From NCBI RefSeq assembly GCF_002113885.1, contig NW_018480020.1, positions 222,163-286,162 on the forward strand: a stretch of DNA of 64,000 nucleotides, given 5' to 3'. Below the pieces are notes generated by a model. The model was not told where the DNA came from, made no database searches, and saw only the letters and a list, made by a program, of their open reading frames with translations. Made by a program: the position numbers and the translations under genes. Below, piece by piece: positions 35,316 through 63,800 of this stretch. This DNA comes from Mizuhopecten yessoensis (Eukaryota). How positions within the stretch are numbered: the first letter of the stretch is position 1; each line of letters begins with the position of its first letter.

Positions 35316-38300
35316 ATGGCATCCAGCAGCAACCTCGACGAGTATATGGCCAAGAAAAAAAATATGAAAAGAACGCTTTCAAATATTACGCAATTGGAGA
35401 ATAAAGTTTTCACGCAGCCTCCGAGATACGAGAATGACACTGAGTTTTTTAAATCAGTCATTCTTAAAACTCAGGAAAGACTATTGTCTATAATAAAGGA
35501 CCCAAACTTCGGACCGGATAAAAACCGCGTATTTTGTTCTGTCGCTAGAAAATTCCTTGGCGATCTGAACAATCTTATATATTATACAGCAACAACAAGG
35601 AAGGATAAGTTTGAGACAGGTAAAATCATTGGAGACGAATTGGTAGAAAATTCGACGATAACATTTTTTTGCAAGACGATACTGAAATCCGAAAAAGATC
35701 TCCCCGCACTGTCCGAGGCGGCGAAAGTGTGTGTGGACATTCTGAATGACATCGCTAACTATTCCGCCGCTGTGTGTCGGACGTGTATGGATTATAAAGG
35801 CATGTTGCGCTTCATCAGAGAGGCTTTAGAAATGTGGCGGAAACCTCTGCATAGCGGCCAATTATCGGTATGTTAAGTTCAGGTTTATCGCAGGCACTTA
35901 ACTTTATGCAATAAAATAAATTAGATAAATAACGGGAAATCTAATTTAGTATTAGACCCGTCCGGAGCCTGAATGACCTCTATACACCATCCTCGACACT
36001 CCAGGGGTTACACTCGCTTTTGCTCCATGCACCCCTCGAATATGTCATAGTAAAATTGAAGGAACGCGGTTAGCTATTTGATTGATTTTATGTTGAAAAA
36101 ACGACCAATGGCTAGGCTGATACCGCTCATTTGAAGATTATGGAGGAGCGACACACAACTTCAAAACCAGTCAATTTTACCGTTAAGCGACCGCGAGATT
36201 ATTATGGTGTACATCAAATGATTAATATAGTCCTACCTTTTCGTCTCATCCCATGGTGTCACACTCGGAGCCTTAGAATTTGTCATGACATATTTCAGGG
36301 GTACAGAGAGCATAAGTGCAAATAAACTTTACATTAAAATTACTTAATACATTTGTCAATTAAGTTAATCTTTCTATAAAAACGCCTGTATACAAAGACC
36401 TTTTTTCAGGACAGGAACAAATCACTCCATAATAAACTCTATGTACGTGTTATGGCTAATTATTTTAATATTGTTCTGAAATATTAACATTTATGATTGC
36501 ATAATTTACGAGGAAAAAAACTTACTATATGTCTACAATAATATTCCCATATCCTATCCCATATCAACCCTAGAAACATATAAACCCTCGACAAATATCA
36601 ACCCTTGGGGCTCTGGGCCCTCGGGCTGACATAGATGTATCGGGTGTTACGGGGTAGGATATACAAGGATAAAATCACATGGTAACCTCTAATCAACCCA
36701 TATCGTAGACGGGTTAATGCTAAACGTTTTTTTGTCAATTGATACTTTCCGATAAATGTGTTGTTTTTATACTGTCGGCAGCCGGAACACGCCAACCACA
36801 TGTACACGTTCGTTGGATTAGTACATAATTCGTGTATGTGTTGTACAACCGTGACTGCTACTGTCCGCTCCTCCGGGATCATCAAAGTGCTTAAGGTAAG
36901 TGTACCGATATTATTTGGTTTGGTTTTATTTGGATAGAGACCTTGTTATAATTAACAGCTACATGTGAGGTAATTAAAGACGCGCCTCCATTGTATGTAT
37001 TGTATGTGTGTAATATGTGCTGGAGACGGTATGTTGGGGTATTTGCCTCCAAGCAACCATCCAACTACTGACTATGTTCGACGTTTTTGGAGTCGTGGTG
37101 TCGTCCATGCAAGGGTTGTAATGCATCACCGGAAAAGCTAACTTACCAGTAAGGTAGTATTTCCTCTCAAATTCTTGAGCTGACTTACCAATGCTTCCCT
37201 AATGAAATAACATGCCAAAGGAAGCCAGATATTTATTCCATCAGTCATATTATACTGACAACTGGTTAACCAGTTGTTGCCGGTACCCTAAACACTGAAC
37301 GTTAAGCAGGGAATGACAACTACCATTTTTAAGGACTTTGGCATGTACTGGCATGGCGATAGAGCTCATTCCCTTCCTCACATTGACGAACGTTCAACAT
37401 CAAAGTCAAAAGTGAGGTATTGCCAAGGAAGGCGCTAATGAACGAAAAGTAGTTAGAAGTAGAGAGAAACACACATATCTCAAATATTGCAAAGGGTCCA
37501 GCAGATTTATTTTGGTCGCTTTGTGTCCTAAGTAGAGGTCACAAACACAAATCCCCAACTCTGCAGGGAGTTCCTACATCAGTCGCTTCTTACGATTTAT
37601 GCCGTGAGAAACAGCAGGTATATTTATTTCTAGTTCCCCACCTGCAGGGGTGTTTCATGTGTGTAAACAAATCAAACATTTTAAAGTTGACACCAAAGAG
37701 GACACACGACCATGGAGGCCAGTTGATGTAACATCAAAGAAGGACATTGCTGCTTTGAAAACAATAATCAAGGACGATGGTCGATATACTATTTCTGAGA
37801 TAGCTTATATGATTGGTATTTCAGATGGCAGTACACATCACATTCTGACCAAGTTCTTGAAATTATATAAGAAAATAGATCTCCCAATTTTTGACATCTG
37901 TACAAAAGGCAAAACGTTCAATGAAATATGCTTAACTATATTGAAAAAAGTACGGTAATTGCGGCTCAAGAAAATAATATAAGTTACTTACAGGGAATGA
38001 TACTCGGGTCTATTATTTTGAACCCAGAAGCGCATTAATAACTAGCATTTGTCGAGAAATCAAGAAAAGCCAGTGACTGCAAAACTTATAACAAGCGCCA
38101 ATAAAGTTCTTGATGCCATTTATTCAATTCTAGCAGACGTGTGGTTCAGATACCTTACAAAGAAGTGAAACTATCACTGCCAATTTTAACAGAGACAAAG
38201 TACTGAAGTTTGTTAAAAAATCTACGTGAAATAACGTCCAAGTAAAGGGTTGAATGTCATCCGCTAATTCACGACAACGCTTCATCCCACAAAAGCAATA

Positions 38301-41300: not shown

Positions 41301-44300
41301 AGTAACACTGAGTCGTTATCAAACATTCTCAACCTCCACGTAATTTTGATTCAACCAATGAGGTTGTAGGGAAACTTATATTGTCTAATGTAATGTGATG
41401 TCATCTTTTAATATCCACCATCGAGGTCATTATAAGTCACAATATACAGTGATGTGCCATACGTACTGCAGGTTTTGTTGTTTTCCAATTGGGTTCTGCT
41501 GGTGTGTAACTTTATTTTGTTTTGCAATAGATTTTCCAAAAGTCGGGTTGGTTCCATTTAGATGACATTTTAAACAAAATTTAAGAATGTCATTCTACCT
41601 TCTATGTTTAATACTTAAATCAATACATGCCTATCAGCTGGTTAAAATCAATTTAGGCGAAATGTTGAACAAAAATAAAATAAAATATAAGAAAGTCACC
41701 TTTTACTTTTCCTCGTGTGTAAAACTGTTACTCAATGCATGCCTATCAGCTATGGTTCCATTTAAACAAAATTTTGAACAGAATTAAAAATTATGAGAAA
41801 GTCATTATACCCTCTCCTCATCATCTGTAATACTTAAATTAATGCATGCGAACCAAAAAAAGCAATCCAGCTAAAGTGTTGAAACACTGAAATATATATA
41901 TTTTTGTGTTCATTTCATTCTTTTGCAGTGACCTCACTGTTTTCCAAGAAAACGCGAGGTCATATAATGATCAGTTACTCGAGAGAGCAGAGGCAGGTTT
42001 TACAGGATATCCGGGCGGAGTTGGAGGCAAATAAATTTACGGTGTGGATGGACGTGGACAGAATGAGGGGCGACGTGTACGAGAGAATGGCAGAGGCTGT
42101 TGAAAATGCCGCCGTCGTAATTCTTGCCATGTCAAGGAGCTACAAGATGAGTGAATACTGCCGGAGAGGTAAATATTGTTAATTTTGATACGGATGCTTA
42201 AGGATCCCTGTCCCAAAACAATATATTTTTCGTACATAGAGTAACTTCCCCTTAATTTCATTTTAGATCCTAATTGTAGCGTGACGTGGCCTGGGTTCTA
42301 CCGATGAAGCGACAGTATAATGATCGGAGGTCCAGGATTCGAATCCTGGTCTGGCTCCGTTCCATTTTTAACATACAGAAAACTCTTGTTGATTTTTTTT
42401 TATTTCATCTTTATAATTTTCATAAAAATTCTGCAAGGTATGGTTTTCAGAATTGGTTTGTTAAAGTTATAGTCATGCAGTCATTGACAGTGATACGGGG
42501 ATCCTTAAGGTAAAGGGTACCAACAAGCTAGACAACCATAAGATATAAACTGCAAAAGTCGAACTCATCACTCTTTACGCTTTACCAATGTAGCTATCTA
42601 GGATATATAAATACTCAGTTTACAGCGTATCGGCTGCAAAGTCTATGGAAACAAAACGAATAGGAGAGATAAATAACTTGACTGGAGAAGGTATTTATCT
42701 TCTTTATAGTAGGGAGACTAATCCAAGTCAGAACACACTTGGTGGACCACTTCTTTGCTATTTTAGTTAAGATAGTAGTACTACTTACCTTAAAGTAAGT
42801 TACATTATGACTTTTGTACGAAATAATCTGGCTTAGTAAGGTCGATTTTACCTAAATAGTTTGTTATACCTCTAAAACCAGTCATCACAAATGTATGGAA
42901 ATATTTCACTCGCGAATCATTATTTAGAAACGTATCTTTTAGTATGTGAAATTTTGTTTCAATGGCGCTAAAATTAGCCCCAAGAGATTCCAATAGAAAA
43001 AGGTAAAAATGCATGAATAATAACATAAATCTGGGTAAATAGCAAATGCTTCTGCAGGATGCTCTATGTACCTCGTGATGAAAAAATGGTATTTTGGTCG
43101 TCTAAAGAAGCCTCAATATTGCCTGTTAAAATTGTTCATGTTCTTATTCCGGATGTGGTCAATTTTATGCTAGGGCTTTGTAGAGAACTCATAAGCCTAC
43201 AGCTTAGAACATTTGAATCTTGTCAGAACCTCGGAACCGAACATTCTTTAGTATTGATCAATGGCAAGTTTTAGCATGATCCAAGTTTTTGTTGCTTCTG
43301 ATGAATCTGTGTTTGCCCTCTATGTCTTCATAATAAACAAATACCGGATACATTTCTTTAAGACTATATACATTAACCTAGTGGCCGTATCTTGCTGTAT
43401 GGTGTGCTAACACGCCTTTGTCGATGAAACGTATCACTATTTCGATCTTTAGGTTCTGTTTACGGATTTAGGAGTGTCTACGTATGGAACTTCTGTTAAA
43501 GGTGGTTTCCGCTTCAAGGGCAGATAATAAAGATGTCAATTTCTCTTGCTTTTCAGAGGCGGCGTACGCTGGAAAGTTAAATAAACAAGTTATTCCACTT
43601 AAGGTCGAGAAGGACTACGATCCTGATGGCTGGCTCGGTATAATGACGGCCGGCTCGTTTTTCTATGACTTTGGAAGGAAATCGTTCAAGTCTGTTATGG
43701 CTAAACTCCTCCATGAGCTCCAGCACTTGGCTTATCGACAAGGAGAGGGCGTGGATAGCCGCCGTAAATCACCAGAAGCTGCCATTCCCACCAGTGCGGT
43801 TCCAGAGCCCCCTCCCATTCAGCTATCTTCCTCAATGACATATTCAAGCCAAAATAACAGGATCGCATCCCAGACATCTCGGGTGACTTACATGTCCAGA
43901 AAGGTACCTACATGTATTAATACAAAGGACACCGATTGCCCGATAGATATTGTCAATGGTCAAGTATACTCTATCACTGACCCAGTATACTGTCAATGGC
44001 AAAGTGTTCTCTTTTTTGATGTTCGGGTACACACTCTCTATGTTGTATTACCATGTCACCATTATTTTGAGTAATTCGTGTTTGTATCACCTCATTTGCT
44101 TCACAAATATAAAAATGCTCATATTTCACAGAGGTTTAATATTCAATATATTCGCAGCCTAAAACGAACCTACGCTGTCATTCGGCAAATTTTCTCGTTT
44201 ACGGAAAGTGCCGACAGTTCCCGATTGTGTCATTTGGCTATCAAAGTACTGAACATGTAAACCTTCAGGAGCCGCTATCTAAACATATCGCTATATTTAG

Positions 44301-47051: not shown

Positions 47052-47689
47052 TGACGTTTATGTACGACCTCCTTTATATGTTTGAATGATTTCAGTGCCA
47101 TGTCAGTTGATTGAAAACGGTTGATTTTTTTTAGATTTACAACAAAGATTATGGCCGTCAGGTCAAACATGATTTTCACTTCAGTCAACTGAAAGGTCTA
47201 GAGCTTTAGATAGCATTTCAATTTTAGTGCAAATGCTGGTCATTTCCGACGCTTCAGGGGTTATGCTTACTTACGCTCTCTGCATTCGGGGTGCAGGGAA
47301 TACAAGTGAGCGTAACCTCTGGAGTATCCAGGATACTAGTTACCGTAAGTTTGACTCCTGATGACGGCGGTAACTTATATGGAACATGTAAACATCGTCT
47401 TAAAATAATCGTTAGTATATTGTTTATTATATGGGCAACAATTGGTGAAAGTATGAATTGTCTACGTCAAATTCAATGTCAATTGTTTTGTATGTGTGAT
47501 TAAATTAAAATTAGCGCAGCAGTTGGAAAGGTTCAGGATTTAAATAAATACAACGTCTGTCGGGACAGTGGAAACGATTTTAATCAAAGGCTTATTATCT
47601 GTTACCTGACAAAGAGGAAAAACCATATTCACTTCTCATATTAGTTCTATTGTAAGGAGTGTATGTAACAGTGTGTGAATGTGGGAGGA

Positions 47690-50600
47690 TTGTATGTGAC
47701 ACAGTGAAACTTTCGGAAGATGTTGTGTGACACATCGTAACTTGGGAAGATGGTGTGAGGCACACTGTAACTTGGGAAGATGGTGTGAGGCACATTGTAA
47801 CTTAGGAAGATGGTGTGAGGCACATTGTAACTTGGGAAGATGGTGCGAGGCACATTGTAACTTGGGAAGATGGTGCGAGGCACAGTGTAACTTGGGAAGA
47901 TGGTGTGAGGCACATTGTAAATTGGGAAGATGGTGCGAGGCACATTGTAACTTTGGGAAGATAATGTGTGACACATTGAAACTTTGGGAAGATTGTGTGT
48001 GACAAAGTGTAATTTCGGGAAGATGGTGTGTGAAGCACATTATAACTTTGGGAAGATGGTGTGTGACAAAGTGTTACTTTGAGAAGATGGTGTGTGACAA
48101 AGTGTAACTTCGGGAAGATGGTGTGAGGCACGTTGTAACTTTGGGAAGATAGTGTGTGACAAAGTGTGAATTTGGGAAGATTGTGTGTGACAAAGTGTAA
48201 CTTCCGGAAGATTGTGTGAAGCACATTATAACTTTGGGAAGTTGGTGTGTGACAAAGTGTAACTTCGGGAAGATGGTGTGAGGCACGTTCTAACTTTGGG
48301 AAGATAGTGTGTGGCACATTGTAACTTTGGGAAGATGGTGTGAGGCACATTGTAACTTGGGAAGATGGTGTGAGGCACATTGTAACTTAGGAAGATGGTG
48401 TGAGGCACATTGTAACTTGGGAAGATGTTGCGAGGCGCATTGTAACTTGGGAAGATGGTGTGAGGCACATTGTAACTTTGGGAAGATGGTGTGTGACAAA
48501 GTGTAACTTCGGGAAGATGGTGTGTGACAAAATGTAACTTTGGGAAGATGGTGTGTGACAAAGTGTGAATTTGGGAAGATTGTGTGTGACAAAGTGTAAC
48601 TTCCGGAAGATTGTGTGAAGCACATTATAACTTTGGGAAGTTGGTGTGTGACAAAGTGTAACTTTGAGAAGATGGTATGTGACAAAGCGTAACTTCGGGA
48701 AGATGGTGTGAGGCACATTGTAACTTGGGAAGATGGTGTGTGGCACATTGTAACTTTGGGAAGATGGTGTGAGGCACATTGTAACTTAAGAAGATGGTGT
48801 GAGGCACATTGTAACTTGGGAAGATGGTGTGAGGCACATTGTAACTTGGGAAGATGGTGTGAGGCACATTGTAACTTGGGAAGATGGTGTGAGGCACATT
48901 GTAACTTGGGAAGATGGTGTGAGGCACATTGTAACTTGGGAAGATGGTGTGAGGCACATTGTAACTTGGGAAGATGGTGTGAGGCACATTGTAACTTGGG
49001 AAGATGGTGTGAGGCACATTGTAACTTGGGAAGATGGTGTGAGGCACATTGTAACTTGGGAAGATGTTGCGAGGCGCATTGTAACTTGGGAAGATGGTGT
49101 GAGGCACATTGTAAATTGGGAAGATGGTGCGAGGCACATTGTAACTTTGGGAAGATAATGTGTGACACATTGAAACTTTGGGAACATTGTGTGTGACAAA
49201 GTGAAACTTCGGGAAAATGGTGTGTGAAGCACATTATAACTTTGGGAAGATGGTGTGTGACAAAGTGTAACTTTGAGAAGATGGTGTGTGACAAAGTGTA
49301 CCTTCGGGAAGATGGTTTGAGGCACGTTGTAACTTTGGGAAGATAGTGTGTGGCACATTGTAACTTTGGGAAGATGGTGTGTGACAAAGTGTAACTTTGG
49401 GAAGATGGTGTGTGGCACATTGTAACTTTTGGAAGATGGTGTGAGACAAAGTGTAACTTTGGGAAGATGGTGTGTGGCACATTGTAACTTTTGGAAGATG
49501 GTGTGAGACAAAGTGTAACTTTGGGAAGATGGTGTGTGGCACATTGTAACTTTGGGAAGATGGTGTGTTACAAAGTGTAACTTTGGGAAGATGGTGTGTG
49601 GCACATTGTACCTTTTGGAAGATGGTGTGAGACAAAGTGTAACTTTGGGAAGATGGTGTGTGGCACATTGTAACTTTTGGAAGATGTCGGGAGACAAAGT
49701 GCAACTTTGGGAAGATGGTGTGTGGCACATTGTAACTTTGGGAAGATGGTGTGAGGCACATTGTAACTTGGGAAGATGGTGTGAGGCACATTGTAACTTT
49801 GGGAAGATGTTGTGTGACGAAGTGTAACTTTGGGAAGATGGTGTGTGACAAAGTGTAACTTTGGGAAGATGGTGTGAGGCACATTGTAACTTGGGAAGAT
49901 GGTGTGAGGCACACTGTAACTTGGGAAGATGGTGTGAGGCACATTGTAACTTGGGAAGATGGTGTGAGGCACATTGTAACTTGGGAAGATGGTGCGAGGC
50001 ACATTGTAACTTGGGAAGATGGTGCGAGGCACATTGTAACTTGGGAAGATGGTGCGAGGCACATTGTAACTTTGGGAAGATAATGTGTGACACACTGAAA
50101 CTTTGGGAACATTGTGTGTGACAAAGTGTAACTTCGGGAAGATGGTGTGTGAAGCACATTATAACTTTGGGATGATGGTGTGTGACAAAGTGTAACTTTG
50201 AGAAGAAAGTGTGTGACAAAGTGTAACTTCGGGAAGATGGTGTGAGGCACATTGTAACTTTGAGAAGATGGTGTGAAGCACATTATAACTTTGGGAAGAT
50301 GGTGTGTGACAAAGGGTAACTTTGAGAAGATGGTATGTGACAAAGTGTAACTTCGGGAAGATGGTGTGAGGCACATTGTTACTTTGGGAAGATGGTGTGT
50401 GACAAAGTGTAGCTTTGGGAAGATGGTGTGTGGCACATTGTAACTTTGGGAAGATGGTGTGTGACAAAGTGTAACTTTGGGAAGATGGTGTGTGACAAGG
50501 TGTGACTTCGGGAAGATGGTGTGCGACAAAGTGTAACTTCGGGAAGATGGTGTGTGACAAAGTGTGAATTTTGTAACTTCGGGAAGATGGTGTGAAGCGC

Positions 50601-51172
50601 ATTATAACTTTGGGAAGATGGTATGTGACAAAGTGTGAATTTGGGAAGATGGTATGTGACAAAGTGTAACTTCGGGAAGATGGTGTGCGGTGGCACATTG
50701 TAACTTTGGGACACTGTAACTTGGGAAGATGGTGTGAGGCACATTGTTACTTTGGGAAGAAGGTGTGTGACAAAGTGTAACTTTGGGAAGATGGTGTGTG
50801 ACAAAGTGTAACTTTGGGAAGATGGTGTTTGACAAAGTGTAACTTTGGGAAGATTGTGTGTGACAAAGTGTAACTTCCGGAAGATGGTGTGAAGCACATT
50901 ATAACTTTGGGAAGATGGTGTGTGACGTGTGTGGCACATTGTAACTTTGGGAAGATGGGGTGTGACAAAGTGTAACTGTGAGAAGATGGTATGTGACAAA
51001 GTAACTTCGGGAAGATGGGGTGTGGCACATTGTAACTTTGGGAAGATGTTGTGTGACAAAGTGTAACTTTGGGAAGATGGTGTGTGACAAAGTGTAACTT
51101 CGGGAAGATGTCGTGTGACAAAGTGTAACTTTGGGAAGATAGTGTGTGGCACATGGTAACTTTGGGAAGATT
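47690..51172. repeat. ~3.5-kb compound minisatellite, 30-33-bp units: core GTAACTT(T)GGGAAGATGGTGTG plus tail AGGCACATT / TGGCACATT / TGACAAAGT
   Basis: About 110 units; homogeneous 30-bp run at ~48780-49140; larger blocks duplicated. Confidence 0.97.
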
Positions 51173-51990: not shown

Positions 51991-53158
51991 TTGATAAATA
52001 ACATTTTTCACATTTGTAAGAATGTAACTTCATTCGATGTCATAGGTGTTGACTATGTTTTAAACTTCAATATTGATCCATAAAGCCAGGGGTCATATTT
52101 TTGGGTTGGATTGAGGACGTCTGTTACGAGGCGATGCTATTACGTCTTTGCTTATTGCAGAGTTATCTTCTGTGGTGAGCAAGTATTGCTTGTTACGTCA
52201 TTTGTTTGTGAGAGTAACGTCATCAATTTTTGAGAAAACGACGTAATTTTCTCGCACAAACCAATGACGTAACAATCAATACCTGCTCACAAGTGAAGAA
52301 CTCTGCAATACGCAAAGACGGAATACGAGAGAAAGAAATTGGATGTTGTAGATCGGTTGATTAAACTTGACGTGTTATTTAATGATAAAGGAATACCTAC
52401 TTAGCCGAACTTCGAAATATTACTGCGCGGGGCCTAGTATTATATACATTTTATATAGATGCTTAACTCGCCTAGAACAACTGAAACGGGCAAATCAGAA
52501 CAATGCCTCAGTAAATATTTTACATTCATAGGAAAGTTTGCTCATCGAATAATGTACAATGCTGTAAGATTTTTCTCAGTACGCCGAATATAGATAAAAA
52601 AAAAACACTGAAATTTTGCAAATTAGTAAAATGCCTCACATAAGCTATTACACCCATAGGAAAGTTAGCTAATTGAATCTTGTATAATGCTTTCACTGTA
52701 GTCTAGTATTTTTTTCTCAGTGTATGGAATATTTGTTTACAAACCATTATCCTGCAAATAATGTAATACACAGTCTCAACATGCTTTATGCCTTTTACAT
52801 GAGATTTGTATACATAATAAACAAGCGAAATAAAGAAAACTAATATATTTGCTCTTTTGTCTGGTATAATTATACTCAGCGTCCCGTATGGCACATAGGT
52901 CGTTAGGTCAATATTAGTAATGCGGTCCGTTTGCTACATGTTAGAGCCATTCCGTAATATTTATGTACTCGAATAGTCTGCAGCTTTTTCTTCTTTTGGA
53001 ATAAGCATGGGCAATGACTGGCCTGTTTGTTATGTACGAATTTAGATAGCCCAAGCTTATTTAACCCAAACATCTTGTAATAAAAAAAAATAACAACTCA
53101 TATGAGGGCTACCCTTTCTGGTCATTTCTACCAAGTTGCGTCTAATTCGGACATGGAG

Positions 53159-53517
53159 CATCCTCGATATCCAGGGGTTACGCTCAATAACGCTCTCTGA
53201 ACCCCTGGAATATGTCAAAGCAAGATTGAAGGCTCAGTGTGCGCCACCTTGTTGATGAGGCAAGAAGACTAGTTTGATCCTTTGATGTACATCAAAAGAA
53301 TCTAGCGGTCTTGTAACGGTAAATATTACTCGCTTTGAAGTCGGGCGTCGCTCCTCTGTAATCTTCAAGGGACAAGCTTCAGCCTAGTTATTGGTCAGGT
53401 GTTTTTTTTTTTATCTGACACCAATCAAATAGCTAGTCGCGTGCCTTCAATTTTGCTACGACATATTCCAGGGGTGTAGAGAGCGAAAGTGAGCGTAACC
53501 GCTGAATATCGAGGATG
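53159..53517. mobile_element. Full-length CATCCTCGA-TIR MITE
   Basis: CATCCTCGATATCCAGGGGTTACGCTCA ... TGAGCGTAACCGCTGAATATCGAGGATG; TSD degenerate. Confidence 0.85.
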
Positions 53518-54074
53518 CCATAGAGCCAAATGTGATTGAAATTCTGACTGTAAATTGAGATACAAATCATATAAAAGATAAAGGAATTACTATAAACAAA
53601 GTACAGGTATGCAACGCCTCCAATGACAACAATCACAAAATCGCCGAAATCGGAAAAAATATACGGGTTACACCCTTCCTATTGTTATATATCGATGCCG
53701 AGAGCAATATTACACCGTCGCTAAGCATACAACATCACTATTGTCTTTGGACCTTTTCTTGTATAGTTGCGGTAAATTGCGATGGGCGAGTTTCAGAAAT
53801 CAATTGAAATGTAAAGCGATGAAAGAAATGATTGCCGTCAAATCTGCAACCCCAAAAAATAACAACTTTTTGACTATCGTCCCTGCTTAACGAAATTCCT
53901 ACAAAAGTTCGGTTGAGTGAACAAAAGGCATTATGCAGCTAGGTTGTACTTTATATAAGAACGTATCAAATGGAAATATTTGTCATTGCTGATACCAACA
54001 AATGTAGCATATGAACTTATCACTCATGTCTCCAACATAGAAAAGAGGATGTATTCTAAGCCTCATTGTAAGTC

Positions 54075-54208
54075 GCATTATCTTGTACCTGCTCTTACCA
54101 GGCCATAAACCCCTTACAGCATTATCTTGTACCTGCTCTCACCGGGCCATAAACCCCTTACAGCATTATCTTGTACCTGCTCTCACCGGGCCATAAACCC
54201 CTTACAGC
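54075..54208. repeat. 44-bp tandem repeat x3
   Basis: GCATTATCTTGTACCTGCTCTYACCRGGCCATAAACCCCTTACA at 54075, 54119, 54163. Confidence 0.92.
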
Positions 54209-54525
54209 AACGGAGGTTAGATTACCACAGTTTCAGCATGACCTCCCTTATTCGGCTATTTTTTTTTTACAGTTTCCCCGCCATAACCAAAAATTTCAAA
54301 ATATCAGCTTTGACAATTCCCTTGTTGGTCTTTCCAGTGGCACCAGCAGTAACTTTAGATCCTAAACTAAGCACATGATTCATATACAGCTGTAAGGGGT
54401 GAAACGGCAACACATGAAGACTTACAATCTGCTTAAACAAGTAACGTAAACACCCAAACCTAATGCATAGTGCCAGATATATTCATTGGTACTGAATCCT
54501 GGCTAAACCCAAGTATTACTAGCAG

Positions 54526-55294
54526 CATCCTCGATACTCCAGAGGTTACGTTCACTTACGCTCTGCACCCCTGGAATATGTTATGGCAAAATTGAAGGCA
54601 CGCGGCTAGCTATTAGATTGGTCTCAGTTAAAAACACTGATAAAACACATGGTTGGCACCTGCGCATTGAAGATAAAAGAGGTGCAACGCCCGACTTCAA
54701 AGTCAGTTTTCCCGTTACGCTAACGGGGGATTCGTTCGATGTACATCAAGGTTTTCAAACTTGTCTTCTTCGTCTCATCTGCAAGGTGGCGCACACTGAG
54801 CCTTCGATTTTGTTATGATATATTCCATGGCATCCTCGATATCCAGGGGCTATGCTTACTTACGCTCTCTACACCCCTGGAATATGTCATGATGAAATTT
54901 GAAGGCACGAAGATAGCTGTTTGATTGGTCTCATGTAAAAAAAACCTGACCAATTGATAGGCTGATACCTCTCCTTTGAAGATTACAAAGGAGAGAAGCC
55001 CGCTTTCAAAGCCTTTCAATTTTTACCGTTACGTGACCGCGAGATTCTTTTGATGTACATCAAAGGATCGAACTAGTCTTCTTGTCTCATCAACAAGGTG
55101 GCGCACGCCGAGCCTTCAATTTTGCCATGACATATTCCAGGGGTGTAGAGAGCGAAAGTGAGCGTAACCCCTGGATATCGAGGATGATTCCATGGATGCA
55201 GATAGCGAAACTGAGTGTAACCCCTGGAATATCGAGGATGATTCCATGGATGCAGAGAGCGAAAGTGAGCGTAACCCCTGGAATATCGAGGATG
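54526..55294. mobile_element. Nested pair of CATCCTCGA MITEs (inner 54831-55186) with duplicated 54-bp terminus
   Basis: Inner TSD ATTCCATGG perfect (54822-54830 / 55187-55195); outer TSD TACTAGCAG / TAGTAGCAG. Confidence 0.85.
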
Positions 55295-55478
55295 TAGTAG
55301 CAGTAGAATACGACTAAATCCTTTTTAATGTTAACCATGAAAACACACCAAACATCCGACATAAGATGTGATTGATGGCGTACTTTTGGTCATAAGATCA
55401 GAATACGTAAGTGACCAGGTGTGTGAACTACTTTTAGATGATGCTACCGAGTTAGTTTAGGCCAAAATGGATACGATG

Positions 55479-55656
55479 CGCCAATAAGGAATGACACCGT
55501 GTTCTGATGGTAAAGACTTTATGTAACACAACACACAATAACCACATGTTACAACAAAATGGAATCAAGCCGGAAGAGGAAGTGCCCAGCATGGGGCCGC
55601 TTAGAAGTCAGTGACGAGGCCGCTTGATATAAGAGAAAGAAAATAACGTACTGGCG
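55479..55656 (-). repeat. 3' LTR
   Basis: Direct repeat of 60683-60860. Confidence 0.95.
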
Positions 55657-55905
55657 TGATTGCCTTTATCTCTAATATGTCCTTTTGAGATAATAACTAA
55701 TCCTATATTAATGGCACAAGTATTCATGAAAACGAAGAAGGTGAACACTCAATACAATAAGAAAACGATAACTAGGGTGCAGTGTATCTGTCCCGTAACC
55801 TGTCCTTTGCAAAATACATGTCTATACATGTACTAATAACACACAAAGTAGGTCAGTAAATGATAGCAGTACTGAAAAAAGGTCACAGTTCACACAACGG
55901 TTTCA

Positions 55906-57657
55906 TCAGCTGAGGTCCCAATCCTGGTTTTGCAAATGAGGAGTAGTACAAGAGCGGGTCGATCGACGAAGTGGAGACTCTGGCACACTTTGCGGAACAG
56001 AAGTCATCGGATCAGACGTATCGGGAACGGAGATGATAGCATCAGGTACAGGAGGCTGTGCAGGCGCGGGAGGCTGAGCCAACACAAGAGGTACTGGCAA
56101 GACCGGTTGCAGGTGTAGCGGCTGATGAGAAGTAACTGTAGGGGGCATTTGAGGAGGACACGACCGGTGACCAAATGTCAGAGCAGGGCGTGGGGGAATT
56201 AAGCCACACGGGTCATCGTCAGAGTCAGAGTCTAAAGTTTCATCTGATACTTGACCTCTGATGGGTCCCTGAGGCGACTGCACAAGAATTGTTGGTAGTA
56301 CTGGGTAACACTGCGACATGGGTACGGTGTACACCTTACTACGGTACTGCGAACTGGTAAACTTCCGTAGCTGGCACGTATGATCATTGACAATGTGAAC
56401 GACAAGACATTTTTCGTGTACTTTGGTTTTGTTCTTATCACACATGAGAAAGACTAAGTCGCCGACGGAAATACTACTATGGCGTATTTTCATGGTCCCA
56501 CCGGCTTTGGTTATGGCCCTAGGTACGTGGTTCTGTTCACGAGACAAACTCTGTCTGTGGATGATCTGCCGATCGATAATAGGTAACTGCTCTCCAGTAA
56601 GCTGGTCTCTTTGAGTCCAGAGTTCGCGAGAAGAGAGACCATCACGCCGAATCCGCGAATTCATCTGAGCAGTGGCGAGGGCTAAAGTGACTGCCGAGAC
56701 AGTGCCTCCCTCTGGGGATAGGTGAAGAATCTCCAACCCAAGTTCCTCTACTGCACGCTCCGCGACTGGGTTCTTATTGGTGTTCTTCACTCTCCCAATC
56801 TCAAGGTGAATGCCATAGGAGAGAAGAATTTTGTCTTTCTGGAGGGCGCAGAAGCCAGGAGCTGGATCAACACGAATGGTAATGCCACCGTCGCATAATG
56901 AGCGTAGCTCCGCGGACATAATCAGGAGAGCGTTTCGAAGATCGTCATGCTTCTCGGTAGGGATCAATGAGGCTAATGTGTATGATGAAACCGTCTCTCT
57001 CAAAACTAAAATGTATTGACGGTAACGACGCATCACGTCCGCAGCAAATGTCACTCCGACTGAGGTGGGTGCCTCAACGGAAGACTGAGGCTGAAAGTGC
57101 TTTGGAAAAGACTTTACAGACTGACAGAAATGGCAGGCAGAAGACACAGATGTATTGGCCTTGTCAACGTCCAGGGCAAAGAAGTACCTATTGAAAAGGC
57201 GCTTAGTCTGATATTTAGACGGGTGGCTGAATCGGATATGCAAGGCTGTCAATAACCCATCAAGGGCCGTGCGTGGAACAACAATACGTTCGCGTGTAGG
57301 TTGGAACGGTTGAGAGTCTCTAACGACAAGCAGGCCGTCGGAAGCTATAACAACGTCCCTGAGGTAGCGCTTGACATCAGGGATCTTGGTGGCCTTCTTA
57401 GAAGGACGAGTACCTTGGCTGAGTTGAGAGTGCACGCGTCGTAAGTCTGGACACTCATGTTGTGTTGCGAGCCATGCGGCGCGGCTGGTAAACGGCATGT
57501 GGATTGTCAGTTCAAGAACATCATTCACAGATACATCGCGGACGACAGAATCTTCCATTTCTGCTATAAACTTGCAAACCTGACATGAAGAGTCGAGACA
57601 TTCGATGGGGTTCCTGCTGGCAAAGTCGGATGGGAGATTGGCGATTCCTGCGATATG
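55906..57657 (-). CDS. Pol C-terminal part: end of RNase H region and integrase (HHCC + DDE) with Pro-rich tail
   Basis: HIAGIANLPSDFASR (RH end), HIRFSH...CHFC zinc finger, FAADV / RVDPA / NPVAERAVEE catalytic residues. Confidence 0.88.
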   Translation of the reverse strand, partial: HIAGIANLPSDFASRNPIECLDSSCQVCKFIAEMEDSVVRDVSVNDVLELTIHMPFTSRAAWLATQHECPDLRRVHSQLSQGTRPSKKATKIPDVKRYLRDVVIASDGLLVVRDSQPFQPTRERIVVPRTALDGLLTALHIRFSHPSKYQTKRLFNRYFFALDVDKANTSVSSACHFCQSVKSFPKHFQPQSSVEAPTSVGVTFAADVMRRYRQYILVLRETVSSYTLASLIPTEKHDDLRNALLIMSAELRSLCDGGITIRVDPAPGFCALQKDKILLSYGIHLEIGRVKNTNKNPVAERAVEELGLEILHLSPEGGTVSAVTLALATAQMNSRIRRDGLSSRELWTQRDQLTGEQLPIIDRQIIHRQSLSREQNHVPRAITKAGGTMKIRHSSISVGDLVFLMCDKNKTKVHEKCLVVHIVNDHTCQLRKFTSSQYRSKVYTVPMSQCYPVLPTILVQSPQGPIRGQVSDETLDSDSDDDPCGLIPPRPALTFGHRSCPPQMPPTVTSHQPLHLQPVLPVPLVLAQPPAPAQPPVPDAIISVPDTSDPMTSVPQSVPESPLRRSTRSCTTPHLQNQDWDLS

Positions 57658-57690
57658 NNNNNNNNNNNNNNNNNNNNNNNNNNNNNNNNN
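57658..57690. other. Assembly gap inside pol (most of RNase H missing)
   Basis: 33 N between RT thumb (PATVQGLRS) and HIAGIAN. Confidence 0.95.
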
Positions 57691-58670
57691 ATGAGCGTAG
57701 GCCCTGTACAGTAGCAGGGGGTTCAGTAGCTGATAAAGCCGCCACTTTGTGGGGGCTAGCCTGTAGAGTTCCATTGGACCAAATCCAGCCTAGGACAACC
57801 GCCCTTTTCGGGCAAACTACAGTCTTGGACGCTGACAAACGAAGGTTCTTCTTTTGTAGTAAGAGAAGGACACGTCGCCAATTGAGAAGAATCTCCTCAT
57901 GGGTTTGGCCACCGATGTACAAGTCGTCAGCAATTTTGGCAACACAGCCTTCCTGGATCAGATCACCAAGGATCCTGGACATGAGCTCTTCGAGACAGGT
58001 TTCAGATCCGGGCATGCCCATGGCGGAACTAGTGTACACACGTATGCCCTTGAATGGAGTAGCGACGCCGCAGTACTTCATGGATGACGTTGCCAAAGGA
58101 ATTTGGTAAAAGGCCTTAGCTAAGTCAGTAATGATCAAAAGGCTCCATTTACCAATTTCACGCAAAACACCATCAACGTTGGGCATTAGCGAAGGTTGCG
58201 GCTTGCTGTACTGAGCAAACTCACAAAATGAAGTAACAAGTCTGGTTCCACCATTGGGTTTCCGTATCAATAAGGAAGTGTTGAGATATTCAACCTGGAC
58301 ATTGACCTGCTCAGGCCTAGCGAAGACACCCATTGACTCCAAATCATCAAACTTTGCCTGTAACTCCTCCATGGTGCCCCTGTTGTATTGGGGAAGTCGT
58401 CCTTTACGCTGAGGAGGGAGAGGTGGACCCATATTCACAACAGCTTCGATAGGTCCACTCGCGCCGTTATACTTGGAAATGGAGGGGTTGAAAACATCAT
58501 CAAACTCGGTGTGGAGTGACTTGAATCTATCGCGGATGGTTGAGTCTAAACAGGAGTCGGGGTCAACGACGACATCACGTGAAAAGGGCTTTGCATTGGT
58601 AGAAGGCGTATCACGTACACTGGTGGAAGGTAGGGGGTCATATGGTACGGACTTTATAGGAGTACTGGTA
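57691..58670 (-). CDS. Reverse transcriptase region of pol
   Basis: RKPNGGTRLV, TDLAKAFYQIPL, AMGMPGS, KIADDLYIGG, VLGWIW. The frame stays open upstream of the listed start back to ~58670. Confidence 0.9.
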
Positions 58671-60354
58671 ACGGTCTAATTTGGCAAAGCTGTTCACCAC
58701 TTTTCAGCACAATAGGCGAGTCAGTAGAATTGATGATACGCACTGTATGATCCACGGAGAGAATGTCTTGTGGTGGAGGCCAGGCCTCCTCGCATGAGGA
58801 ATGCACATTAGAAGGACTGTCCAATCTAGGCTCAAAGGCCCAAACTGCGTCGGGCTCCAAATCGCATGGTGTAGAGAGCTGAAGGTATTCACCAGGTAAA
58901 ACCACAGTGCGTTTGGGATTGCGTAGTAGGAAAGCCTGGGTACGTCGCACGCTGGAATGTGAAGATCGACTAGGTGAACCGCCGTTATTGATAACCTCAG
59001 TACCATTTATCACGATCTGCCGTTTCGCTGGGCGAACGCCAATGTCATTTCGGGACATAAACGGGTTTCCTGCCAGAATATCGACATCCAACTGTCGCAC
59101 AACTAGAGCATCGAGCTCAAAGTTAAGTTTTCCTCGAGTGATGGAGCAGTGCACTTCTCCTACAACATCCATGGGAGTAACACCGTCTGCCTGACGAGCG
59201 ACCTGGGACGCTGGGGTAATTGGAAAACCAAACATACGGGCAGCAGATGCCCGGACCATGTTAGATGTAGCGCCGGTGTCCAATGTCAGCTTTACAGGGT
59301 GTTCATTGAAAAATGTAAGGAGAACCGGGGATTGAACGATGCTCACACGGTGGGCGACAGGCCCTTCAACGCTCATTGACTGAGCGATGCTGTCGAAATC
59401 AGAGTCTATGACTTCATTTTCTTCCTCGTGACAGGATTCGGCATCACCCTCGGTCACAAGACGCGAGCGACTTATGGACTTCCTGTCACGTTCAGGAAGG
59501 AAGCGACAATTCATGAGATCATGTGTGGTATAGGGTCGGTTGGCTGTTTTGCATAAGATGCATGACAATGCGGGTCTCTGCCGTGATCTGTCCTTACTCT
59601 TGAAACCGTACCCCTTTGAGAATGTGTTGCTGACACGCATAGCCTTGGTATCCTCTATACAGCGGAGCTCATCGAGGAGAGAACTGAGGGCCTGAGAAAT
59701 TTCAGGCTTTAAGGAGGCGAGTGACTTATTACGAAGCTCAGAACCATATTTCTGCTTCACAAGAATGGGTAGGCCTGGATGAACGAGTTGGAGCCATATG
59801 ACAACAATGGTGTTCTCCAGAGTGGGAGTAAGATCCTCGTCTACCTCAACAGCTTCACCGTGATGTGTAACGCCGCAGTTGGCAGTAAGTAAATTGTCCT
59901 CAAAAAATGCTGTAAGCCGTTGGAACAGATCCTCAGGTCTTTCGTCTGGCTGTAAAGATATGCTCGACAAATCTAGAAAGTGAGCACCGGTGGACTGGAA
60001 GCCGTAGTGTTGTCTGGTTTTTTGCCGGACATCATTTAGGGAAAGTGAGCATTTTACTATGGAGTTTCTTGAGATGACGGGGCAAAAATTGGCAATCTGC
60101 CCTAACATTAGGTCTAGGTGGGCATTTTTCTGAGCGGCGGTCAATCGCTGGTCTGCCGGGATGGGGTCGTTATCATTAGTGAAACCGCTATGGGGGTTTG
60201 TAGCGGTTTTCTTTTGCCATGTTGCCTCTAGGCAAGGAACAAAATTCTTGTCCAGTGAAATAATATACACAAGGTTCTGTCGCCAACCTTCATACGATGC
60301 TATTGTCTCATGCTTTGTTAATTGCCATTGTTTGGGGGATCTTGGGGCAGCCAT
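58654..60354 (-). CDS. Gag-protease ORF
   Basis: 566-aa ORF; Cys/His knuckle CILC...H...C; aspartic protease LTLDTGATSN and ILAGNPF. Confidence 0.88.
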   Translation of the reverse strand: MAAPRSPKQWQLTKHETIASYEGWRQNLVYIISLDKNFVPCLEATWQKKTATNPHSGFTNDNDPIPADQRLTAAQKNAHLDLMLGQIANFCPVISRNSIVKCSLSLNDVRQKTRQHYGFQSTGAHFLDLSSISLQPDERPEDLFQRLTAFFEDNLLTANCGVTHHGEAVEVDEDLTPTLENTIVVIWLQLVHPGLPILVKQKYGSELRNKSLASLKPEISQALSSLLDELRCIEDTKAMRVSNTFSKGYGFKSKDRSRQRPALSCILCKTANRPYTTHDLMNCRFLPERDRKSISRSRLVTEGDAESCHEEENEVIDSDFDSIAQSMSVEGPVAHRVSIVQSPVLLTFFNEHPVKLTLDTGATSNMVRASAARMFGFPITPASQVARQADGVTPMDVVGEVHCSITRGKLNFELDALVVRQLDVDILAGNPFMSRNDIGVRPAKRQIVINGTEVINNGGSPSRSSHSSVRRTQAFLLRNPKRTVVLPGEYLQLSTPCDLEPDAVWAFEPRLDSPSNVHSSCEEAWPPPQDILSVDHTVRIINSTDSPIVLKSGEQLCQIRPLPVLL

Positions 60355-60671
60355 GTCGCTATATCACACTAAATGGTATTGATATGATCAGGATGATGAA
60401 ATGAACACACAAAAATACAGACACAATTCACGATCGTGTTGAATACATAAAATAAAGGACGAATTGGATCACAGTTCACAAGAAAAAACAGCGGGTATGA
60501 CGTGGAATGAATGAAAATTCTTATTTGATTATGTGAATCCTGTAGGCCCTAACGTTCCGAGCCCCTATGTAAACGCGGTTGTTGTTGACGTTACAGCCTT
60601 CACTTTAAAGTACAGATGTCACGATGTTGGTTGACTACACGTTCATTAGAGTCTTCTAGGCATGGGTAATG

Positions 60672-60682
60672 CGCTGCCACCA
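60672..60682 (-). promoter_or_regulatory. Primer-binding site complementary to tRNA-Leu 3' end
   Basis: Minus strand TGGTGGCAGCG immediately after the 5' LTR; complementary to ...CGCTGCCACCA-3'. Confidence 0.8.
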
Positions 60683-60860
60683 CGCCAATAAGGAATGACA
60701 CCGTGTTCTGATGGTAAAGACTTTATGTAACACAACGCACAATAACCACATGTTACAACAAAATGGAATCAAGCCGGAAGAGGAAGTGCCCAGCATGGGG
60801 CCGCTTAGAAGTCAGTGACGAGGCCGCTTGATATAAGAGAAAGAAAATAACGTACTGGCG
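60683..60860 (-). repeat. 5' LTR
   Basis: Direct repeat of 55479-55656, followed on the minus strand by the PBS. Confidence 0.95.
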
Positions 60861-63800
60861 ATGGGTAAAACCACTATATAAGGATTGAAGCAGGCTTCAT
60901 ACAATATGGATGTAACCGATTTGCCTTCATACCGGCATGGAAATTAAAAACAACAACACCGCCGTTTAATCCATATATCTACACTTTTATTTATTGCGTT
61001 TTGTATATGCGTCATCCTTTAACGACATTGGTGGAACAGTCCTATTTGAATGACATTGGCGCCAAAAATTAACCGTAGTCATTTGAGCGTTTGACGCAGG
61101 GGCATCATCCATGTCATTCGAAGCGAAGCAACAAAACCCTCATTGAACAAGGTTAATCAATGACGTCATAAGTGAACCACGTGTTATGTCACGAGAGTTT
61201 TTGCTTTCATACTCAAATGAAAAGCAGTTCTGCTGGTAATGTTCTTATAGCGAGTTGCAGCGCAAATGTAAATATATGACTGTTCTTTTAATAATAAAAA
61301 AATACGGATGAAAAAAGCCTCTCGAGTCTTGACATTTTGCTTGGAAAAGCAACTACAATTTATCATTCGACTGTAATACATTGTCATTGGACGTGACTAA
61401 ATTATCCAAGCTGGGACTGGAACAATAATACTAATACCTGGAAGAATTTTCCCCAAATTTCATTTGTCATTTGTGACTTCGTCTACTTGCTGGATACGAC
61501 GCCGGAATAGTGCAAATTGTTGAAACACCTACTAGAAATGATTATACGCTAGATCTAGTTATAACCGATACGACCAATCAGGTCATCCAATTCAATTTCT
61601 TACCCCAACAAAGACTCTACATTTCTGTAAATTCAGGTCGTGCGAAAATCAGCTCATAGAGTTCATAGATAATATATCAGAGGTAATTGTAATTAACAAT
61701 ATAAAAAACCTATGTAAAGATGTAATCAAGACATGTCATACCAAATGCTCACATCTTTGACTGAATTGTCTCCTGTTTTACTTGTTGATTAATAGAATAC
61801 TTCAATCCCCTTGAGATGAGATAGGGGAAGCTCAACCCTCAGGGAAGGATTCTTAAGTTGCCAAACACGAGGATTATCAACTGAAAAATCGTCCCCGAGG
61901 GTTGAGATTCTCGATCTCACCTCGAGGGGTGTCACTGATTCTTTTTCTCTTATCCTGTTGACCGTGTCATATACATAATGCATCGTTGACGTTGTGGGCT
62001 CATTGCATTGTTGACGTGACGTCTTACAATTCTTTTTAGAAGAGAATCTCCCGTCTCAACCCTAGAATGATATTAATAGAATCCATCCGTGATGTGAGGT
62101 ATGGATACACAATTGTAAGGTTATTCAAACCTTCGGGATAAAGCCTCGTGTCTCATGCTCAATATTTCATCCCTTAATTGGTTTTGAATTACCTTATTCA
62201 TACCTTACACCAAGGATGGATTATTTTAATCTCACACCGGTAAAAGTGCGGATACACCTGTCCAGGGTAAGAGCAAAGGATATCCAAGATGAGTTGAAAC
62301 ACTCTACCGCAGTATATATATACCACCTCTATCGATTCTCTTGGTTCCTTCAAATTAGCGCTTCTTCACATGTGTTAGACCTCTTGGGTTTATCACGTTT
62401 TTACCCAATGTACAGTGTAGCTCTCTCATTTGCCAATTCAAGCAGCTGAAGCTGTCCCAGAGACATATACACAAGGCAACTCATTCCACCAATCTGATCT
62501 GTGCATGGAATTCCTCTTCAAATGGCGGGATGTAGAGACATATATACATTTGCAGGGGTTTGGCGGTTTATTCAGTGGCGGATCCAGAGTTTTTTTGGGG
62601 GCTTCAGGAAACCCCCCACCCTGAGAATTTTCTTTAAAAATCATGTATTTTCACCATTTCCCTCAATTTTTCCCCACTTGGAAACCCCCTCTGGAAACTT
62701 GGAAACCATCATTTTTTTATTTCCATTTTCAAATATTCAAATTTCAAACGACTCTAATTAATATTCTGTAAAATGTATAGCAAACTACGTGAATTATATG
62801 TAATATTACTATAGGAAATGCATTTATGATTAACAACGGAATAAGATCATGGTACCGTTAAGTCCGTGTTTAAACAAATATTCCATAAAATGACTAATGC
62901 AATAATATATTTTAACTTGTATCTATCCTTTACATTAAAAGGTATTTCATTCACATAGAGACGTACATACTACTGGCTTTATATGCCTCTGATTCAAACA
63001 TAAAAAAAAATCGTTAATTTTACTTGTGGTCATTTTTAATGTTGTATTTTTGTAAAATTCCGGAACGGACCTTCCTTTTCCGTATCATAAATTAAGACGT
63101 TTACCAAATATCCGGGATGCTTTTTGATGGAGTAGATGAACATGGATAAAAACATAACAATGGTTAAAGACGTAATCTCATCCAACCCCGAGATAATTTT
63201 GTCATTCGCAGAGTAAGCATTGCTGCCTGTTTTCATGTGCATCTCAGCTTTTATTCGTGATGTTGCGTATATATAAGTGATTAGGCCTGCTGTCAGATAG
63301 TCTGCTAAAATTCTGATCGGTTGCCTGTTTACGCATATTGTCAGTTTAAGCGGACTACAGTAGCTGTCAGACTGTCGCTGGCTTCCACTGTTATGCCAAT
63401 CGAACAAACCACAGTGAGGTCATGTGGCATTTTCACATACCCGGGTAAAACCCTTTGTATATTTTTTTTTAGCAAAATCTCGAAAATGCATAATATATAG
63501 TATACACATAATCAGTGTGTCCAGCACATGTGCTCTGAGAATATACATGATTAACCCACCTGAGTTTTCTCTGGCCCGGGCACCAGACTTAGATATGTTT
63601 ACAGATAGATTTCTTGTTTGGAAACCAGACATTTATATCATTATCTGTCAACTAAAAGCATCAACCGACAACAAGAATCTTCAAGTGACAACAAGCGTCA
63701 CCTGACCAAATCTTTAAAAAACCAGAATGAAGTAACTGACATCAGGAGATACACTGTTCCTATGACTTATACAACTGTACCAAATTTTAATTTGATATTT

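What the first reader, a model, noticed from the sequence alone, without database searches (positions are those of the whole stretch)
55476..60863. Young LTR retrotransposon with non-canonical CGCCA...TGGCG ends and a 3-bp TSD (Troyka-like)
Seen: 178-bp LTRs differing at one position. Both begin CGCCA and end TGGCG rather than TG...CA, ATG flanks both sides, and the tRNA-Leu PBS abuts the LTR, which fixes that boundary. Established: nearly all LTR integrases act on a terminal CA and make 4-6-bp TSDs. From memory, the small Troyka group in Repbase is defined by 3-bp TSDs and such ends. Inference: a recently active member of a little-studied clade whose integrase has altered end recognition and stagger; default LTR finders would miss it.
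Basis: partly seen in the sequence, partly recalled or inferred. Interest (0 to 1): 0.7.

Follow-up and report, generated by a model that had tools for sequence, protein, structure and literature searches.

The report
Dead Troyka retrotransposon copy, CG ends
This is a broken copy of a Troyka jumping gene, a group already described, with its unusual CG ends and three-letter landing-site duplication confirmed; comparing its relatives shows a shared leucine-tRNA docking site that likely has two parts and a landing-site bias that likely reflects sharp DNA bending.

Summary
In detail: minus-strand LTR element at 55479-60860, 178-bp LTRs differing once, CGCCA...TGGCG ends, ATG on both sides, and a tRNA-Leu PBS touching the LTR. 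The 3-bp TSD is real: 30 of 33 insertions with both flanks, from four families in this genome, duplicate exactly 3 bp, none 4-8. It is a Troyka (= Kuafuortervirus) element, a superfamily published in 2008/2024/2025; ends, TSD, IADD RT motif, CX2CX9HX4C knuckle and lack of GPY/F all fit. 'Recently active' overstates it: this copy is frameshifted between protease and RT, carries 0.9% private, neutral-looking changes, and an assembly gap hides its RNase H. Not found in the two Troyka papers read: (1) a tRNA-Leu-type PBS with no spacer in 38 of 50 informative metagenome relatives, plus a second segment complementary to the tRNA T-arm (29 of 40 leaders beat shuffles); (2) three genomic fossils of read-through into the primer tRNA; (3) a YR step in 29 of 30 TSDs; (4) an invariant KNxNKN loop and no K159 equivalent in integrase. 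A word search of earlier scan notes found no Troyka entry. New member of a known kind, with useful new mechanistic detail.

The parts
55476..55478 (.). target-site duplication, left copy (ATG on +)
   Evidence: 3-bp rule in 30 of 33 insertions
55479..55656 (-). 3' LTR, 178 bp, reads CGCCA...TGGCG on either strand
55657..55673 (-). polypurine tract AGAGATAAAGG (55663-55673) followed by 6 nt CAATCA before the 3' LTR
   Evidence: same junction in family copies; function inferred
55906..57657 (-). end of RNase H, integrase (HHCC 57124-57240; D 57034-57048, D 56863-56874, E in KNTNKNPVAE 56758-56787), SH3-like C-terminal part without GPY/F, Pro/Ser-rich tail
57658..57690 (.). assembly gap of 33 N; sister copies hold about 490 nt here (most of RNase H)
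57691..58675 (-). reverse transcriptase, catalytic motif IADD at 57923-57934
   Evidence: Pfam RVT_1 E 3.2e-9
58654..60354 (-). gag (zinc knuckle CX2CX9HX4C at 59506-59562) and protease (DTGA at 59269-59280); frame broken at its end, in the PR-RT linker
60658..60667 (-). second PBS segment ACCCATGCCT, complementary (one G-U) to the 5' strand of the tRNA-Leu T stem and adjacent variable arm
   Evidence: duplex -19.0 vs -10.4 kcal/mol for shuffles, p 0.005; pairing inferred
60672..60682 (-). primer-binding site TGGTGGCAGCG, tRNA-Leu (AAG/TAG), no spacer to the LTR
60683..60860 (-). 5' LTR, 178 bp
60861..60863 (.). target-site duplication, right copy (ATG on +)

Best explanation
This is a frameshifted, decaying copy of a Troyka (Kuafuortervirus) LTR retrotransposon with CG ends and a 3-bp target duplication, left by a family that likely replicated with a leucine tRNA primer held by a likely two-part binding site and an integrase predicted to read TGGCG ends and to bend its target sharply. 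Steps: (shown) LTR-gag-PR-RT-RH-IN-LTR anatomy, CGCCA/TGGCG ends, 3-bp TSD, 11-nt tRNA-Leu PBS with no spacer. (Strongly supported) mature tRNA-Leu is the primer: three genomic fossils carry an LTR end followed by a longer tRNA copy with CCA and a changed base opposite A58. (Inferred) a second leader segment pairs with the freed T-stem strand, as in Ty1. (Inferred) the PBS-side end of the cDNA is made almost flush with TGGCG, while the PPT side carries a few extra bases that must be trimmed. (Inferred) integrase joins the G-3'OH of TGGCG at both ends 3 bp apart, favouring bendable YR-containing sites; the KNxNKN loop and loss of the K159 equivalent are the candidate determinants of CG-for-CA recognition.
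For: Ends and TSD. Protein signature: IADD/LADD in 108 of 120 relatives, knuckle spacer 8-10 in 75 of 75 full-length ones, GP[YF] after the IN core in 2 of 73; RT visibly alike to Kuafuortervirus rows in the PMC11673190 supplement passages; 30 xADD-type RTs fall on one side of a 100-supported branch against 12 other RTs of this genome (quick tree). Broken copy: relatives encode one ~1640-aa Gag-Pol, sister copies read through the linker (open frames 1054 and 612 aa), 40 private substitutions in 4346 sites, N:S 23:8. Primer: TGGCG|TGGTGGCAGC at 42 places in G000, 0 for the control; 42 of 50 informative metagenome loci show LTR end plus PBS with no spacer, 38 of them Leu-type; fossils L120/L296, L133, L295. 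Second segment: 29 of 40 non-redundant leaders at p<=0.05 (23 of 33 in the metagenome set, which was not used to form the idea), 39 of 40 below the shuffle mean, 37 of 40 below the best downstream window, D-arm control z +0.6. Target: YR step in 29 of 30 exact TSDs vs 127 of 240 flank trinucleotides. Integrase: gapless alignment to retroviral cores; K,N,N,K,N invariant in 78 of 78, no K at the 159 equivalent in 78.
Against: No Repbase or Kojima Data S1 sequence could be compared, so membership rests on features and motifs, not on a tree with named Troyka rows. No empty allele of this site was found. 3 of 33 insertions lack an exact TSD. The second PBS segment could be an inherited relic of an old read-through tRNA copy: C-to-T changes (50 vs 31) are also what transitions give, leaders share ancestry, and 11 of 40 do not beat shuffles. 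4 of 42 metagenome junctions have a non-Leu-like first 10 nt and 8 of 50 loci have no junction by pattern. The integrase residues are a correlation from one clade; the model has pTM 0.48 and low confidence in that loop (residues 236-239). TSD counts come from one genome.
Confidence: 0.9

Rival explanations
1. An ordinary Gypsy element whose true boundaries are shifted, with a 4-5-bp TSD (GATG or CGATG).
For: At this site CGATG does occur on both sides if the right LTR is ended at TGG.
Against: LTR identity runs through TGGCG in both LTRs and in 85 of 96 3' ends; 0 of 33 insertions have a 4-8-bp duplication; RT has IADD while 11 of 12 other RTs of the genome show Y/FxDD.
Confidence: 0.01
2. The copy is intact and currently active; the frame break and substitutions are assembly errors in a collapsed repeat.
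For: LTRs differ once; the element has an N gap, so the assembly was in difficulty here.
Against: 40 private substitutions spread over codon positions 12/8/11 with 19 transversions, plus one private length difference; nearest copies are 2% away. Contigs of other samples run into the same junctions (27-28 letters only), which fits an insertion shared between animals.
Confidence: 0.07
3. It is Troyka, but the second tRNA-like segment is a fossil of ancestral read-through with no role in priming; the PBS is a plain 11-mer.
For: Read-through copies of the tRNA do get integrated and can replace the leader (L133); the segment often sits near the register of a full antisense tRNA (offsets 13-27).
Against: The bases between the two parts vary freely in sequence and length while the segment is kept across elements 41-76% identical in protein.
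Confidence: 0.3

Closest known systems
Troyka LTR retrotransposons (Kojima 2025, PMC12440569; first reported by Kapitonov and Jurka 2008, not seen)
   Same: CGCCA/TGGCG ends (573 and 522 of 603 LTRs in that paper), 3-bp TSD, LTR 100-400 bp, single Gag-Pol in order knuckle-PR-RT-RH-IN, CX2CX8-10HX4C, no GPF/Y, no env.
   Different: This copy is broken. The paper's main text has no occurrence of primer, PBS, tRNA, polypurine or YxDD and gives no target-site preference in the text read; its supplement could not be seen, so this family may already be catalogued there.
Kuafuorterviruses (Gong and Han 2024, PMC11673190), the same lineage under another name
   Same: IADD/VADD/LADD in place of YXDD, 5-6 kb, animal hosts.
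   Different: That paper does not treat ends, TSD or PBS in the text read; 'PBS' had 0 hits in the held supplement.
Ty1 and Ty3 bipartite primer-binding sites (PMC5371799, passages)
   Same: Short PBS for the acceptor stem plus a second segment for the T arm; in Ty1 the two parts lie close together.
   Different: tRNA-iMet in yeast, tested by experiment; here tRNA-Leu and only inferred.
Retroviral intasomes (PFV, HIV-1, MMTV; PMC4422553 abstract, PMC2615046 passages)
   Same: Three-domain DDE integrase fold (Foldseek E 6.5e-16 to PFV 4bac, 15% identity); YR enrichment at the site centre that rises as the TSD shortens.
   Different: They join CA ends with 4-6-bp staggers and use Q148/K156/K159; here CG ends, 3 bp, and N / mostly E,Q,R / G,E at those positions.

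Membership tests
Troyka / Kuafuortervirus | 5'-CG...CG-3' termini, mostly CGCCA...TGGCG | tested here: met
Troyka / Kuafuortervirus | 3-bp TSD | tested here: met
   30 of 33 exact, none of 4-8 bp; this element's own family 7 of 8 there, plus one exact and one single-mismatch pair read
Troyka / Kuafuortervirus | 3-bp TSD confirmed on an empty orthologous site | tested here: inconclusive
   no empty allele among 5 runs laid; no paralogous site
Troyka / Kuafuortervirus | Gag knuckle CX2CX8-10HX4C | tested here: met
   CX2CX9HX4C at 59506-59562
Troyka / Kuafuortervirus | RT motif IADD/VADD/LADD | tested here: met
   IADD at 57923-57934; 108 of 120 relatives I/LADD
Troyka / Kuafuortervirus | No GPF/Y motif in integrase, no env | tested here: met
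Troyka / Kuafuortervirus | Single Gag-Pol, order PR-RT-RH-IN, no tether | tested here: inconclusive
   order PR-RT-IN met; this copy is frameshifted and RNase H lies in the N gap; relatives at 59-81% RT identity are single ~1640-aa proteins with RNase H domains; tether not tested
Troyka / Kuafuortervirus | Falls in the Troyka clade in a tree with named references | not testable with these tools
   reference sequences not loadable; by-eye likeness to supplement rows; own tree separates 30 xADD-type from 12 other RTs
Metaviridae / Gypsy | TG...CA termini and 4-6-bp TSD | tested here: not met
Metaviridae / Gypsy | YXDD RT motif | tested here: not met

The most novel reading that the evidence does not exclude
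The whole Troyka superfamily is locked to one primer, tRNA-Leu, through a two-part PBS that touches the LTR, and its integrase is the shortest-stagger retro-integrase known: a KNxNKNP loop in place of the retroviral NPQSQG and loss of K159 would let it read CG ends, and its 3-bp cut nearly requires a YR step, extending the rule that shorter staggers need more bendable targets.
Probability: 0.55. Interest if true: 0.55.

Novelty: new member of a known kind. Interest (0 to 1): 0.34.

Why it matters
The copy itself is ordinary. Troyka has been defined only by sequence, and nobody has shown how its integrase uses CG ends or cuts with a 3-bp stagger. The comparisons here give concrete, testable candidates: the primer (tRNA-Leu, with fossil read-through products as evidence), a two-part PBS, a near-obligate YR step in the target, and a short invariant integrase loop. 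The 15-mer TGGCG|TGGTGGCAGC is also a cheap annotation tag: 42 hits, 0 for the control, in a 988-Mb genome.

Tried and rejected
Shifted-boundary 4-5-bp TSD: rejected. Programmed frameshift between gag-PR and RT: rejected, since sister copies and relatives read through. Empty allele: runs X1, X2, X8, X10 on the right junction and X2, X4, X8, X10 on the left showed none; contigs of X1, X4 and X8 cross a junction by only 27-28 letters, under the tool's 31-letter rule, so they only hint at a shared insertion; X2 and X10 gave no cover of the left flank, which proves nothing. Paralogous empty site: left flank unique, right-flank repeat begins about 28 nt beyond the junction. L120 as a Helenus/Ajax-like TRIM: not supported, no second LTR seen in the locus and its ends are CG-type. 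phmmer of the single integrase ORF against PDB: 0 hits; the profile found retroviral integrases. The careful tree did not finish; the quick tree was used, rows with more than one stop would have been dropped and none was. Wobble excess as proof of pairing: inconclusive. Kojima supplement: not available. Rows dropped before counts: L222 (duplicate of L220), L165 and L012; L120, L133, L145; 22 of 72 metagenome loci lacked the 5' region.
Full report
Observation. The two 178-nt direct repeats lie at 55479-55656 and 60683-60860 and differ at one base. Each reads CGCCA...TGGCG, and ATG stands outside both ends. The element is on the minus strand: gag-protease (Pfam gag-asp_proteas, E 9e-7), RT (RVT_1, E 3e-9) and integrase (weak Integrase_H2C2 and rve) follow in that order. 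A run of 33 N at 57658-57690 stands where sister copies have about 490 nt, so the true length is near 5.8 kb and most of RNase H is unseen.

Boundaries and TSD. At this site alone the letters allow a 5-bp duplication CGATG if the LTR ended at TGG. The copy survey excludes it. The LTR search gave 35 matches in G000, 30 fetched; three further families, found through the RT search, gave 23, 23 and 40 matches. Of the fetched LTR copies 89 of 95 scorable 5' ends are CGCCA and 85 of 96 3' ends TGGCG. Of 33 insertions with both host flanks (9 solo LTRs, 24 pairs), 30 duplicate exactly 3 bp, 2 have one mismatch, 1 has two, and none has a duplication of 2 or 4-8 bp. No empty allele of this site was found.

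Identity. Kojima 2025 (PMC12440569; parts 1-4 of 5 read, i.e. the main text; supplement not held) defines Troyka by CG...CG ends (CGCCA in 573, TGGCG in 522 of 603 LTRs), 3-bp TSDs confirmed on empty sites, a CX2CX8-10HX4C knuckle, no GPF/Y and no env, and proposes a superfamily outside Gypsy. Gong and Han 2024 (PMC11673190; parts 1-2 of 3 read, supplement searched) describe the same lineage as Kuafuorterviruses with IADD/VADD/LADD for YXDD. The element has CX2CX9HX4C, IADD and no GPY/F. Among 120 listed relatives 108 have I/LADD, 75 of 75 full-length ones the 8-10 knuckle, 73 of 75 D-35-E, and 2 of 73 a stray GP[YF]. Supplement rows of Kuafuortervirus RT match motif for motif by eye. A quick tree puts 30 such RTs on one side of a long, fully supported branch against 12 other RTs of this genome; it holds no named Troyka row. 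An unchecked scan note calls the host a scallop; Kojima lists Troyka in five Pectinida species, so the family may already be in his data.

Age and state. Close relatives encode one polyprotein of about 1640 aa, and sister copies read through the PR-RT linker, so the frame break near 58,660-58,700 is damage; it is private to this copy. At 4346 internal sites where three or more other copies agree, this copy differs at 40 (0.92%, CI 0.66-1.25), with 23 non-synonymous and 8 synonymous changes in coding parts, as expected of neutral decay. One LTR difference gives 0.28% per branch with CI 0.007-1.6%; at 0.92% one expects 3.3 differences and sees one or none about 16% of the time (hand calculation). 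The copy is young as transposons go but not functional as assembled. Eight of 20 paired elements measured have LTRs differing at one base, so several families moved in the same recent period.

Priming. The 11 nt after the 5' LTR are complementary to the 3' end plus CCA of tRNA-Leu(AAG/TAG), 27 pattern matches in G000, 8 of 9 scanned loci called tRNA-Leu. The exact junction TGGCG|TGGTGGCAGC occurs 42 times in G000, control 0. In 72 metagenome loci found by protein, 22 lack the 5' region; 42 of the other 50 show LTR end plus PBS with no spacer, 38 with a Leu-type core, and 3 more look like decayed versions (the pattern assumed no spacer, and a look for 0-3 nt spacers in the remainder found no clear case). 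Three loci carry longer antisense tRNA copies behind an LTR end, all with A opposite A58 (the pattern excluded the unchanged base; L145 has 19 matching nt without the change). m1A58 is the plus-strand stop in HIV-1 (PMC8599865, abstract) and causes misincorporation on read-through (PMC4787781, passages). These fossils are the best evidence that mature tRNA-Leu is the primer.

Second PBS segment. Four bases behind the PBS the window has ACCCATGCCT, complementary to the 5' T-stem strand and variable arm of that tRNA. In 40 non-redundant leaders (33 metagenome, 7 from G000) nt 15-40 pair with this tRNA segment at -17.6 kcal/mol on average against -10.8 for shuffles and -9.0 for downstream windows; 29 of 40 reach p<=0.05, 23 of 33 in the set not used to form the idea; the D-arm control shows nothing. 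Ty1 has a two-part PBS with a small internal loop (PMC5371799, passages). Shared ancestry from an old read-through copy is the rival; I put function at about 70%.

Integration. TSDs are biased: C at the first or G at the third place in 39 of 66, A/T at the centre in 30 of 33, and a YR step in 29 of 30 exact TSDs against 127 of 240 flank trinucleotides. Retroviral YR enrichment rises as the TSD shortens from 6 to 4 bp (PMC4422553, abstract); a 3-bp stagger with a near-obligate YR continues that trend. The integrase model (mean pLDDT 75.9, pTM 0.48) has the three retroviral-type domains and matches PFV, HIV-1, Ty3 and others at 13-18% identity. A profile aligns without gaps to FIV- and MMTV-type cores across the catalytic glutamate (chain 4pa1 as FIV is recalled). 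HIV-1 binds its ends through Q148, K156 and K159 (PMC2615046, passages). In 78 long relatives the matching places hold N (78), E/Q/R (66; K 3) and G/E (71; K 0), and K143, N144, N146, K147 are invariant (P, A and E of the motif were used to select rows). These are the candidate determinants of CG recognition; the link is a correlation. With no spacer at the PBS and 3-6 nt between purine run and LTR at the PPT, end processing is likely asymmetric; this is inference.

Literature. Searches for Troyka, Kuafuortervirus, bipartite PBS and 3-bp TSD with tRNA-Leu PBS listed no other paper on the group's priming or target choice; the 2026 meeting report only cites it (passages). The 2008 Repbase report, Repbase entries and Kojima's supplement were not seen and may state the primer. 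No earlier scan note held the Troyka words.

Verdict. A real, correctly recognised Troyka element; new member of a known kind; dead copy. Interest 0.34, carried by the priming, target and integrase signatures rather than by the copy.

Noticed in passing
L120/L296 (G000:C370, near 199300), L295 (G000:C210, near 1232630), L133 (G000:C3824, near 42810): Troyka-type LTR ends followed by antisense tRNA-Leu copies running past the PBS, all three with A where the tRNA gene predicts T opposite A58. L120 continues to about tRNA position 38, just before G37 (my numbering; methylation of G37 is recalled). L133 rejoins its family's leader at a short shared GAAC-like word. Likely integrated read-through products.
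   Followed up: partly
L068-L087, L118-L147: At least eight Troyka-type leader families coexist in G000 (RT 54-61% to this one where measured). Several paired copies are shorter than full length (LTR starts 3.1-3.6 kb apart in five family-D elements), possibly a non-autonomous subfamily.
   Followed up: partly
L271, L273, L275, L241: Metagenome relatives whose PBS starts TGGTGAAAGG or TGGTGGTAGT instead of the Leu-type core; possible primer switch or host tRNA difference.
   Followed up: no
window 53158-55294: Cluster of a short dispersed repeat in direct and inverted copies (169-nt arms 91% alike, 54-bp tandem), MITE-like, just left of the insertion.
   Followed up: no
window 47682-51171: 31-bp minisatellite of about 110 copies with strong G skew.
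   Followed up: no
window 60889-61280: Very high-copy short repeat in the right flank (summed contig depth in the thousands against about 14 for unique DNA).
   Followed up: no
window 19179-23114 (+), 35112-35876 (+), 43472-44074 (+): Long K/S/R-rich open frame of 1311 codons and two probable exons of another gene; no Pfam family above its cut-off. The last resembles a TIR-like domain by recall only.
   Followed up: partly
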